64,000 nt of DNA, taken from NCBI RefSeq assembly GCF_045037415.1, contig NZ_CP173438.1. One strand, given 5' to 3'. The translations under genes and the position numbers were made by a program. Positions 10,822 through 11,126 of the stretch are shown here, in pieces (within the stretch, counting starts at the first letter, position 1; every line of letters begins with the position of its first letter). Under the pieces are notes generated by a model, which was not told the DNA's origin, made no database searches, and was given only the letters and a program-made list of their open reading frames with translations. This stretch comes from Escherichia coli (GTDB lineage Bacteria; Pseudomonadota; Gammaproteobacteria; Enterobacterales; Enterobacteriaceae).

Positions 10822-11051
10822 GATTGTCTGCTCCCCCGTCTTGTTATGGGAGCAGTATTTCGTTGCGGGTAAGTTTGATAAAGGAATTAAAACGTCTTGT
10901 TAATAACAAAGCGTTTTTAGAAAAAAATCGGCAATGGTTAGCGAGTTTGCGCATTTTGCTACTTTTAACAAACATCGCCTGATGTGACGCTCACGCCTCT
11001 TATCATGCCTACAAATACTGGGGCCGGATAAATTTTATTCTCCAGTGTTAT

Positions 11052-11100
11052 ATACTATAGGGGGGTATGCATTGACATATAGCATACCCCCCTATAGTAT
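11052..11100 (+). promoter_or_regulatory. frmR operator/promoter: perfect 19-bp inverted repeat ATACTATAGGGGGGTATGC / GCATACCCCCCTATAGTAT separated by 11 bp containing TTGACA
   Basis: Read directly; G6/C6 tracts flanked by AT-rich arms match the CsoR/RcnR-family (FrmR) operator type; TTGACA at 11072-11077 with candidate -10 in the right arm; 27 bp upstream of frmR ATG. Confidence 0.7.
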
Positions 11101-11126
11101 ATTGCGTGCAGATGATGAGGTGCGAA

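What the first reader, a model, noticed from the sequence alone, without database searches (positions are those of the whole stretch)
10822..11126. Compact tauA-frmR junction lacking the genes and IS elements recalled between them in K-12
Only about 300 bp separates the tauA start from the frmR start, and it is filled by the tauA promoter region and the frmR operator/promoter. My recollection of K-12 places yaiO, an IS-disrupted yaiX, yaiP and yaiS in this interval, so this strain has a simpler, possibly ancestral, arrangement; the absence of any IS remnant argues against a recent IS-mediated deletion here.
Basis: partly seen in the sequence, partly recalled or inferred. Interest (0 to 1): 0.4.

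Follow-up and report, generated by a model that had tools for sequence, protein, structure and literature searches.

The report
Empty allele of tauA–frmR variable site
The short gap between the taurine and formaldehyde operons is real. It is the "empty" version of a well-known strain-variable site in E. coli: an old allele typical of the ST131 lineage rather than a recent deletion, and otherwise ordinary.

Summary
Observation confirmed. tauA (9859-10821, minus strand) and frmR (11127-11402, plus strand) are 305 bp apart. K-12 has 5,350 bp there: yaiS, ykiC, yaiP, IS2-split yaiX and yaiO.

The site has three alleles among 5,426 complete E. coli genomes:
- yai cassette, about 4,365 genomes.
- An 8-kb afu/FusKR cassette (EHEC O-island 20), 451 genomes.
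- The compact form, about 594 genomes. These are mostly ST131 (EC958), plus E2348/69 and others.

The compact gap holds three things. The first is a tauA promoter of the type conserved across Enterobacteriaceae. The second is a decayed REP element (10977-11012). The third is the FrmR-operator/frmR promoter. It has no IS remnant.

E. albertii has the same gap-free 305-bp junction at about 91% identity, matching its flanks, so the allele is ancient.

It is probably not the original state. Citrobacter, Klebsiella, Raoultella and Enterobacter carry the afu cassette next to tauA, and its divergence tracks the flanking genes. The compact allele shares its tauA-proximal 138 bp with the afu allele. 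The best reading is an ancient deletion of the afu cassette ending next to the REP.

At least one genome with this junction (Ecol_AZ161) carries a second yaiSPXO cluster, 90.5% identical, in a genomic island beside cobU/cobS.

Low novelty.

The parts
9859..10821 (-). tauA coding sequence (taurine ABC transporter substrate-binding protein), first gene of tauABCD
   Evidence: ORF. Annotated as tauA in 100%-identical genomes.
10822..10859 (-). tauA leader with Shine-Dalgarno and the invariant AATACTGC (candidate -10, 10854-10859). This is the only part of the tauA upstream region shared at high identity by all three alleles.
   Evidence: BLAST breakpoints against K-12, the APEC strain and O157. 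Invariant columns in the 14-sequence alignment. The promoter assignment is inference.
10860..10942 (-). Conserved tauA promoter/activator-site block. It is shared at 97% with the afu-type allele and recognisable in Citrobacter, Klebsiella, Raoultella and Enterobacter. K-12-type genomes have a strongly diverged version.
   Evidence: That this is where Cbl/CysB act is from my own knowledge of K-12 tauA regulation and was not tested.
10943..10976 (.). Spacer shared with Escherichia afu-type alleles up to 10959. Similarity then decays towards the REP.
10977..11012 (+). Single, decayed REP element (GCCTGATGTGACGCTCACGCCTCTTATCATGCCTAC). It sits where Citrobacter, Enterobacter and Kluyvera have a REP pair upstream of the tauA promoter.
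   Evidence: 84-90% matches to REP copies elsewhere in the K-12, AVS0543, O157 and APEC loci. REP motif scan. Positional alignment with Citrobacter. The canonical hairpin is lost in the window copy but kept in E. albertii.
11013..11023 (.). Junction bases between the REP and the frmRAB module. This is the inferred deletion join.
   Evidence: Unique to the compact allele. Not homologous to the sequence beyond the REP in Citrobacter.
11024..11049 (+). Start of the frmRAB upstream module. The right-hand boundary is common to all three alleles (11024 against the yai type, 11018-11035 against the afu type).
11050..11102 (.). FrmR operator: two 21-bp arms (ATATACTATAGGGGGGTATGC / GCATACCCCCCTATAGTATAT) forming tandem type I CsoR/RcnR-family sites. 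It encloses the frmR promoter: -35 TTGACA at 11072-11077, a 17-bp spacer, and -10 TAGTAT at 11095-11100.
   Evidence: Sequence. Promoter scan, 10 of 12 matches. Hairpin of -21.5 kcal/mol, z -7.4. Description of the E. coli Pfrm in PMC5146963.
11127..11402 (+). frmR coding sequence (formaldehyde-responsive repressor), first gene of frmRAB

Best explanation
The 305-bp tauA-frmR gap is the cassette-free allele of a three-allele replacement site in Escherichia. It is a working divergent control region. It holds the tauA promoter of the type conserved across Enterobacteriaceae, one decaying REP element, and the FrmR-operator/frmR promoter.

It most likely arose long ago, before or around the E. coli / E. 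albertii split. The event was deletion of the ~8-kb fusRK, uhpC-like and afuABC cluster (O-island 20), which originally lay between tauA and frmR. One deletion end lay right beside the REP upstream of the tauA promoter. The other lay at the left edge of the frmRAB module.

Since then the allele has persisted, and has probably moved between lineages by homologous recombination in the flanking core genes. It is now fixed in ST131 and present in some other lineages: E2348/69 (B2-like flanks) plus about 40 further genomes whose phylogroup I did not determine.

K-12's yaiS-yaiP-yaiX-yaiO cassette is a different, separately derived occupant of the same site.

Shown: the three alleles, their breakpoints and their frequencies; the age of the compact allele; afu synteny in outgroup genera. 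Inferred: the direction of change (deletion of afu), the role of the REP, and spread by recombination.
For: - Junction-specific searches give compact 593-595, afu-type 451 and yai-type 4,365 genomes, together 5,410 of 5,426.
- The breakpoints are nested. 10822-10859 is shared by all alleles. 10860-10959 is shared only by compact and afu-type, at 97%. 10960-11023, with the REP, is unique to compact. From 11024-11035 onward all alleles share sequence.
- E. albertii and Escherichia sp. E1V33 have the same gap-free 305-bp region. The three sub-segments of the E. albertii region are 90-93.5% identical to the window, against 86-91% for most flanking genes (frmR 97%). That fits long residence.
- The fusRK-uhpC-afuABC cluster lies divergently next to tauA in many Citrobacter, Klebsiella, Raoultella, Enterobacter, Lelliottia, Silvania and Leclercia genomes. 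In Citrobacter the order is mhpT-(mmuP)-mmuM-afuCBA...-tauABCD-hemB, with no frmRAB.
- O157-to-outgroup nucleotide identity is 73-87% for the cassette and 79-86% for tau/hemB, with broadly the same ranking of genera.
- Independent losses show the direction. C. gillenii keeps only a TOBE-domain afuC 3' remnant beside tauA. Citrobacter sp. R56 has mmuM directly beside tauA.
- REP pairs sit just upstream of the tauA promoter in Citrobacter, Enterobacter and Kluyvera. The compact-allele REP aligns with the tauA-distal one.
- Flanks follow phylogroup, not allele. The window is 98-100% identical to a yai-type B2 strain right up to the breakpoints.
- There is no tRNA, integrase or direct repeat at the boundaries and no IS remnant.
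Against: - No intermediate was found: no Escherichia afu-type allele with an intact REP, and no afu gene fragment beside frmR.
- The O157 afu-type allele has only a REP-like degenerate stretch at that place, so the REP could be a later insertion.
- E. albertii and several B2 lineages carry the compact allele. This could instead mean it is the ancestral Escherichia state.
- Only one genome per non-coli species was examined. E. fergusonii, E. marmotae and E. ruysiae were not recovered by the tauA search.
- Similar divergence of cassette and flanks is also expected if the cassette came by transfer from a close relative.
- The afu cluster can be mobile. It also occurs on an integrase island beside ulaF, and as a fragment in K-12 between IS1 and IS5.
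Confidence: 0.62

Rival explanations
1. The compact junction is the ancestral Escherichia arrangement. Both the yai cassette and the afu cassette were inserted later between the REP and the frmR promoter.
For: The compact allele occurs in E. albertii, Escherichia sp. E1V33, a divergent E. coli (RMDEC465) and several B2 lineages, with divergence like the flanks. It has no scars. The yai cassette has low GC (45%, with a 31% GC spacer) and also sits on a genomic island. The afu cluster also occurs on an integrase island.
Against: The afu cassette is syntenic next to tauA in many outgroup genera, with divergence tracking the flanking genes. The O157 tauA-fusR spacer aligns with the Citrobacter one. 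Re-insertion at exactly the old position, now abutting frmR, would need an unlikely event, because the donor would offer no homology on the frmR side. Deletion of afu is seen independently in Citrobacter.
Confidence: 0.25
2. The compact junction is a recent deletion of the yaiS-yaiO cassette in the ST131 lineage. The ancestor would be a K-12-like or ST95-like B2 strain. The loss might have been tolerated because a second yai cluster exists elsewhere.
For: The flanks are 98-100% identical to a yai-type B2 strain up to the breakpoints. ST131-like genomes carry a second yaiSPXO cluster beside cobU/cobS. ST131 genomes are IS-rich: IS1 is inserted in this very gap in Ecol_AZ161.
Against: The compact allele contains 164 bp (10860-11023) that yai-type genomes do not have at this locus. 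This includes the undiverged tauA promoter block and a REP. The same junction is in E2348/69, about 40 other non-ST131 genomes, E. albertii (about 91%) and E1V33. There is no IS remnant.
Confidence: 0.03
3. The three alleles are kept by balancing or niche-specific selection rather than by neutral history. Under this view the empty allele is favoured in some lineages, for example by removing FusKR/Afu sugar-phosphate sensing, or by bringing the tau and frm promoters close together.
For: All three alleles are found in more than one Escherichia species, with divergence like the flanks. Allele type is uncoupled from phylogroup within B2. FusKR and AfuABC have reported roles in gut colonisation (PMC4546632, PMC11644481).
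Against: Frequencies in the database mirror sampling of clones: ST131 for compact, O157 for afu. Persistence plus occasional recombination explains the pattern without selection.
Confidence: 0.1

Closest known systems
O-island 20 / K-island replacement site of E. coli O157:H7 EDL933 versus K-12 MG1655
   Same: It is the same chromosomal site, bounded by tauA and frmR. O157 carries fusRK, a uhpC-like gene and afuABC there (OI-20 content in PMC4546632). K-12 carries yaiS-yaiO. The window is the third state, with no cassette.
   Different: The window has neither cassette. It keeps the afu-type tauA promoter block and adds a REP not present in O157 or K-12 at this place. The naming of O- and K-islands (Perna et al. 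2001) is from my own knowledge.
The same junction in reference genomes EC958 (ST131) and E2348/69 (EPEC, O127:H6)
   Same: A 96-bp junction probe matches EC958 at 100% and E2348/69 at 97.9%. E2348/69 annotation shows tauA and frmR as direct neighbours.
   Different: There is no structural difference. E2348/69 differs by a few substitutions and lacks the mhp operon that the window has.
REP/BIME elements of enterobacteria
   Same: A 36-bp sequence with the REP consensus ends, 84-90% identical to other REP copies. It is extragenic.
   Different: It is a single copy lying between two divergent promoters rather than after a gene's 3' end. In the window, two stem mismatches abolish the canonical hairpin.
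Independent loss of the afu cluster next to tauA in Citrobacter gillenii and Citrobacter sp. R56
   Same: The tauA promoter block is retained, with a REP just upstream. The afu cluster is missing, either entirely or except for a 3' afuC remnant.
   Different: The neighbour on the other side is mmuM rather than frmR. These are separate events in another genus.

Membership tests
REP (repetitive extragenic palindromic) element | Consensus sequence with GCC(G/T)GATG... at the 5' end and ...CTTATC(A/C)GGCCTAC at the 3' end, about 35-40 bp | tested here: met
   Window 10977-11012 matches REP copies elsewhere in the fetched K-12, AVS0543, O157 and APEC loci at 84-90%. It also hits the REP 3' motif scan, allowing one substitution.
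REP (repetitive extragenic palindromic) element | Imperfect palindrome able to form a stable stem-loop | tested here: inconclusive
   The window copy does not adopt the canonical REP hairpin (MFE -4.1 kcal/mol, z -1.7). The E. albertii orthologue does (-7.9 kcal/mol, z -3.15). The window copy looks like a decayed relic.
REP (repetitive extragenic palindromic) element | Extragenic and present in many copies per genome | tested here: met
   It lies in the tauA-frmR intergenic region. There are 14 motif hits in the 64-kb window.
FrmR (CsoR/RcnR family) tandem type I operator of the frmRAB promoter | [quoted passage not shown] | tested here: met
   11050-11102 has 21-bp arms with G6/C6 tracts flanked by ATAC/GTAT. 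It encloses a TTGACA-17-TAGTAT promoter and is a strong palindrome. It matches the description of E. coli Pfrm in PMC5146963.
FrmR (CsoR/RcnR family) tandem type I operator of the frmRAB promoter | Bound by FrmR and released by formaldehyde | not testable with these tools
   This needs binding or reporter assays. The sequence is 98-100% identical to K-12 and APEC versions over 11024-11126.
IS-mediated deletion scar | IS end remnant, solo inverted repeat or orphan target duplication at the join | tested here: not met
   The longest matches of the gap to IS1 and IS2 are 9-11 bp, at chance level.
Site-specific genomic-island attachment site | tRNA/tmRNA gene or other att site at the boundary | tested here: not met
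   No tRNA or tmRNA in window 6000-16000.
Site-specific genomic-island attachment site | Integrase gene in the cassette, and direct repeats flanking it | tested here: not met
   No integrase in the yai or afu cassettes at this locus. The longest direct repeat across either cassette's boundaries is 7 bp.
Replacement (multi-allelic) variable segment flanked by core genes | Alternative unrelated gene sets at one site between the same conserved flanks, with allele type uncoupled from flank phylogeny | tested here: met
   Three alleles account for 5,410 of 5,426 genomes. The flanks of the window are 98-100% identical to a yai-type B2 strain.

The most novel reading that the evidence does not exclude
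The EHEC 'pathogenicity island' OI-20 (FusKR fucose sensor plus AfuABC sugar-phosphate transporter) may not be a lateral acquisition. It may be the original occupant of the tauA-proximal site, inherited from the common ancestor of Escherichia, Citrobacter and Klebsiella. Most E. coli would then have lost or replaced it. On this reading, the empty, afu and yai alleles have coexisted across Escherichia species (E. coli, E. albertii, E. whittamii) as a long-lived polymorphism crossing species boundaries.
Probability: 0.45. Interest if true: 0.35.

Novelty: already known. Interest (0 to 1): 0.17.

Why it matters
The main value is as a correction of perspective. K-12 is not a neutral reference at this locus: one E. 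coli site has three alternative contents.

The window's form is the one fixed in the pandemic ST131 lineage. It lacks both the FusKR/AfuABC sugar-sensing cassette and the local yai cassette, although at least one genome with this junction (Ecol_AZ161) carries a second yai cluster elsewhere.

The tauA promoter comes in two very different haplotypes linked to the cassette type. This could affect how taurine use is regulated in different lineages.

The side result is that OI-20 looks ancestral rather than acquired. That bears on how FusKR is described in the EHEC literature. None of this is surprising in kind.

Tried and rejected
- An Rfam scan of 10600-11400 gave only sub-threshold microRNA-family hits on the FrmR palindrome (20-27 bits against gathering scores of 73-140). 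I reject these as spurious.
- The promoter scan found the frmR promoter but no tauA promoter. The tauA -10 I propose rests on cross-genus conservation only.
- I could not retrieve the paper I recalled as the primary source on Cbl/CysB sites at tauA; the PubMed id, given from memory, was not held. A full-text search did not yield the site coordinates. Those sites are therefore not mapped here.
- A literature search for yaiO/yaiP/yaiS found nothing on this polymorphism.
- I looked for tRNA genes, integrases and flanking direct repeats as signs of site-specific insertion and found none.
- I looked for IS remnants and found none.
- The 52-aa ORF at 10824-10982 was not pursued. It overlaps the conserved promoter block and the REP, and it has a TTG start.
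- I did not verify that the window's own genome carries the second yai cluster. This was shown only for Ecol_AZ161, which has the same junction apart from an IS1. The island version is present in 839 genomes.
- The tauA-based search of species representatives did not return E. fergusonii, E. marmotae or E. ruysiae. Their state is unknown.

Full report
**1. The observation**

The window carries tauA on the minus strand (9859-10821) and frmR on the plus strand (11127-11402). The gap between them is exactly 10822-11126, 305 bp. In K-12 MG1655 the same two start codons are 5,350 bp apart. That interval contains yaiS, ykiC, yaiP, an acetyltransferase gene split by IS2 (yaiX) and yaiO.

The 305 bp have no match longer than 9-11 bp to IS1 or IS2. 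No Yai or Afu homologue is encoded anywhere in the 64-kb window. The window is 99.99% identical along its whole length to strain AVS0543, except for one IS1 that AVS0543 has and the window lacks. Junction-identical genomes include EC958 and several records named O25b:H4-ST131. The window also carries the hyxR/fimX island. It therefore comes from an ST131-like B2 strain.

**2. What the site is**

The tauA-frmR interval has three alternative contents.

- **yai type.** yaiS-(ykiC)-yaiP-yaiX-yaiO, found in K-12, an APEC O2:K1:H5 strain and E. whittamii.
- **afu type.** An 8.2-kb cluster: a response regulator, a MASE1 histidine kinase, a uhpC-like gene and an AfuABC-type ABC transporter. It is found in O157:H7, O55:H7, O145 and an ETEC strain. 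It is the EHEC O-island 20, with the FusKR two-component system and the AfuABC sugar-phosphate transporter (PMC4546632).
- **Compact type.** No cassette, as in the window.

Junction-specific probes against 5,426 complete E. coli genomes gave these counts:

| Allele | Genomes |
|---|---|
| yai type | 4,365 |
| afu type | 451 |
| compact | 593-595 |
| total | 5,410 of 5,426 |

Of the compact genomes, about 545 match a 96-bp junction probe at 99% or better. The named ones among those listed include EC958 and several O25b:H4-ST131 records. About 43 carry a variant typified by EPEC E2348/69, from varied hosts. A few are more divergent, such as RMDEC465 at 93.5%.

**3. Anatomy of the 305 bp**

BLAST and pairwise alignment against the other alleles give nested breakpoints.

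- 10822-10859 is shared by all three alleles.
- 10860-10959 is shared only with the afu type, at 97%.
- 10960-11023 is unique to the compact allele.
- From 11024 (against the yai type) or 11018-11035 (against the afu type) onward, all alleles share sequence again.

The unique stretch contains a 36-bp REP element at 10977-11012. It is 84-90% identical to other REP copies in the compared loci. In the window two stem mismatches abolish the canonical hairpin. The E. albertii copy still folds well.

The right third is the frmRAB control region. A 53-bp inverted repeat (11050-11102) has G6/C6 tracts flanked by ATAC/GTAT. This matches the tandem type I FrmR sites described for E. coli Pfrm (PMC5146963). 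It encloses a TTGACA-17-TAGTAT promoter.

The left third is the tauA control region. An alignment of 14 tauA upstream regions from five genera shows a conserved block from the ATG to about -120 (window 10822-10942), with an invariant AATACTGC at 10852-10859. I take this as the -10 region. The block upstream would be the place where the LysR-type activators Cbl and CysB act. This rests on my knowledge of K-12 tauA regulation and was not tested.

The yai-type genomes have a homologous version of this block. It is strikingly diverged, more so than the Klebsiella or Enterobacter versions, starting immediately upstream of AATACTGC.

**4. Age of the compact allele**

The E. albertii type strain and Escherichia sp. 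E1V33 have the same gap-free 305-bp region, REP included. The three sub-segments of the E. albertii region are 90-93.5% identical to the window, against 86-91% for most flanking genes (frmR 97%). The allele has therefore resided there about as long as its flanks. This excludes a recent deletion in ST131.

Within B2, the window's flanks are 98-100% identical both to a yai-type strain and to compact-type E2348/69, right up to the breakpoints. Allele type is thus uncoupled from the background. This is as expected if alleles are swapped by homologous recombination in the flanking core genes. There is no tRNA, integrase or meaningful direct repeat at the boundaries.

**5. Which state is older**

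A search of one genome per species for tauA returned 80 loci. In many Citrobacter, Klebsiella oxytoca-group, Raoultella, Enterobacter, Lelliottia, Silvania, Leclercia and Huaxiibacter genomes, the fusRK-uhpC-afuABC cluster lies divergently next to tauA, exactly as in O157. In Citrobacter the order is mhpT-(mmuP)-mmuM-afuCBA-uhpC-HK-RR facing tauABCD-hemB. frmRAB is absent.

Nucleotide identity between O157 and these genera is 73-87% for the cassette genes and 79-86% for tau/hemB, with broadly the same ranking of genera. A divergent Escherichia lineage (SCPM-O-B-8794) has the cassette at 92-95%, with flanks at 90-93.5%. This pattern fits vertical descent of the cassette with its neighbours.

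Two Citrobacter species show independent loss. C. gillenii keeps only a TOBE-domain 3' remnant of afuC beside tauA. Citrobacter sp. R56 has mmuM directly beside tauA.

REP pairs lie just upstream of the tauA promoter block in several Citrobacter, Enterobacter and Kluyvera genomes. The compact-allele REP aligns with the tauA-distal member of that pair. O157 has only a degenerate REP-like stretch there.

Taken together, the compact allele keeps the old tauA promoter and the old REP, and joins them directly to the frmRAB module. That is the structure expected from a clean deletion of the afu cassette with one end beside the REP.

I put this at about 0.6. The alternative is that the compact form is the ancestral Escherichia state and both cassettes are later arrivals. 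It remains possible at about 0.25, because no intermediate was found and because E. albertii and several B2 lineages carry the compact form.

**6. The K-12 cassette**

The yai cassette has 45% GC, and a 31% GC spacer separates it from tauA. By comparison, tau is 56% GC and the afu cassette 54%.

The cassette is also found elsewhere. Ecol_AZ161 has the compact junction with an IS1 inserted in it. It also carries a complete yaiS-yaiP-yaiX-yaiO cluster, 90.5% identical to the B2 locus copy. That cluster lies in an island beside cobU/cobS, among IS remnants. A total of 839 genomes have this island version. I could not check the window's own genome.

The afu cluster is likewise found on an integrase island beside ulaF in some strains. 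A truncated afuB-afuC next to mmuM-mmuP, between IS1 and IS5, occurs in K-12. That fragment reproduces the Citrobacter chromosomal order.

**7. Comparison with what is known, and verdict**

The difference between K-12 and O157 at this site is one of the classic O-island/K-island replacements. The compact junction is present and annotated in reference genomes such as EC958 and E2348/69. The finding is therefore real but ordinary: an empty-site allele of a known variable locus.

The least ordinary by-product concerns OI-20. Reviews describe it as laterally acquired and restricted to a few EHEC serotypes (PMC11644481). Here it looks like the ancient occupant of the site, lost or replaced in most E. 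coli.

Noticed in passing
window 14238-22919 (mhpT to mhpR): The window carries the whole mhpR-mhpABCDFE-mhpT cluster between yaiL and lacI. Two other B2 genomes lack it: APEC E19035 (L007) and E2348/69 (L092). There yaiL is followed by a GlxA-family remnant and then lacI. This is a second presence/absence polymorphism only 3 kb from the finding, and it also differs within B2.
   Followed up: partly
window 10888-10896; L008 3498-4265: In Ecol_AZ161 an IS1 is inserted into the compact gap, with a 9-bp overlap (target duplication) at window 10888-10896. This lies inside the conserved tauA promoter block and probably disrupts tau regulation in that strain.
   Followed up: yes
L089 7944-11150 (Ecol_AZ161, beside cobU/cobS): A second complete yaiS-yaiP-yaiX-yaiO cluster, 90.5% identical to the B2 tauA-frmR copy. 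It lies in an island with a TonB-dependent receptor, IbrA/IbrB-like genes and IS4/IS66/ISL3 remnants. 839 complete genomes have this island version.
   Followed up: partly
L090 and L091 (strains CUPS04 and PF9285, beside ulaE/ulaF): The whole fusRK-uhpC-afuABC gene set also occurs directly downstream of a tyrosine integrase next to ulaF, at 94-98% identity to the O157 copy. The cassette can therefore also travel on an integrative island.
   Followed up: partly
L094 4502-8338 (K-12 MG1655, CP4-6 region): K-12 has a truncated afuB plus afuC (86% identical to O157's) facing mmuM-mmuP, bracketed by IS1 and IS5. This is the same gene order as the Citrobacter chromosome between mhpT and tauA. It suggests a captured piece of that ancestral-type segment.
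   Followed up: partly
alignment A2; K-12 L001 4792-4870 versus window 10860-10942: The tauA promoter haplotype linked to the yai cassette is more diverged from the compact/afu haplotype than the Klebsiella or Enterobacter promoters are. The divergence starts right upstream of the invariant AATACTGC. Its origin is unexplained: import from an unsampled donor, or rapid change.
   Followed up: partly
L013-L073 (outgroup loci), L003 12725-20517: Reviews call FusKR/OI-20 laterally acquired and limited to a few EHEC serotypes. Here the cluster is syntenic beside tauA in many Enterobacteriaceae genera, with divergence like the flanking core genes.
   Followed up: partly
window about 53502-53509: AVS0543 has a 768-bp IS1 between betT and pdeL that the window lacks. 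Otherwise the two sequences differ by only 1 mismatch and 2 single gaps over the roughly 63 kb compared.
   Followed up: yes
window 13508-13549, 15543-15555, 29286-29327, 32062-32238, 36880-36920, 45604-45645: REP/BIME clusters in other intergenic regions of the window. The copies at 32062 and 32156 share the unusual TTATCATGCCTAC variant seen in the junction REP.
   Followed up: no
window 60945-63226: The ipbA (fimX) invertase, hyxR and hyxA, typical of extraintestinal pathogenic E. coli, lie at the far end of the window. This is consistent with a B2/ST131 origin.
   Followed up: no
L007 6355-7121; L003 4473-7401; L092 1-923: Pseudogenes in compared strains. tauB is frameshifted in APEC E19035. 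The ehaB autotransporter is frameshifted in O157 AR-0427 and E2348/69. The homologous autotransporter ORF in the window (about 2880-5867) is intact in the identical AVS0543 annotation.
   Followed up: no
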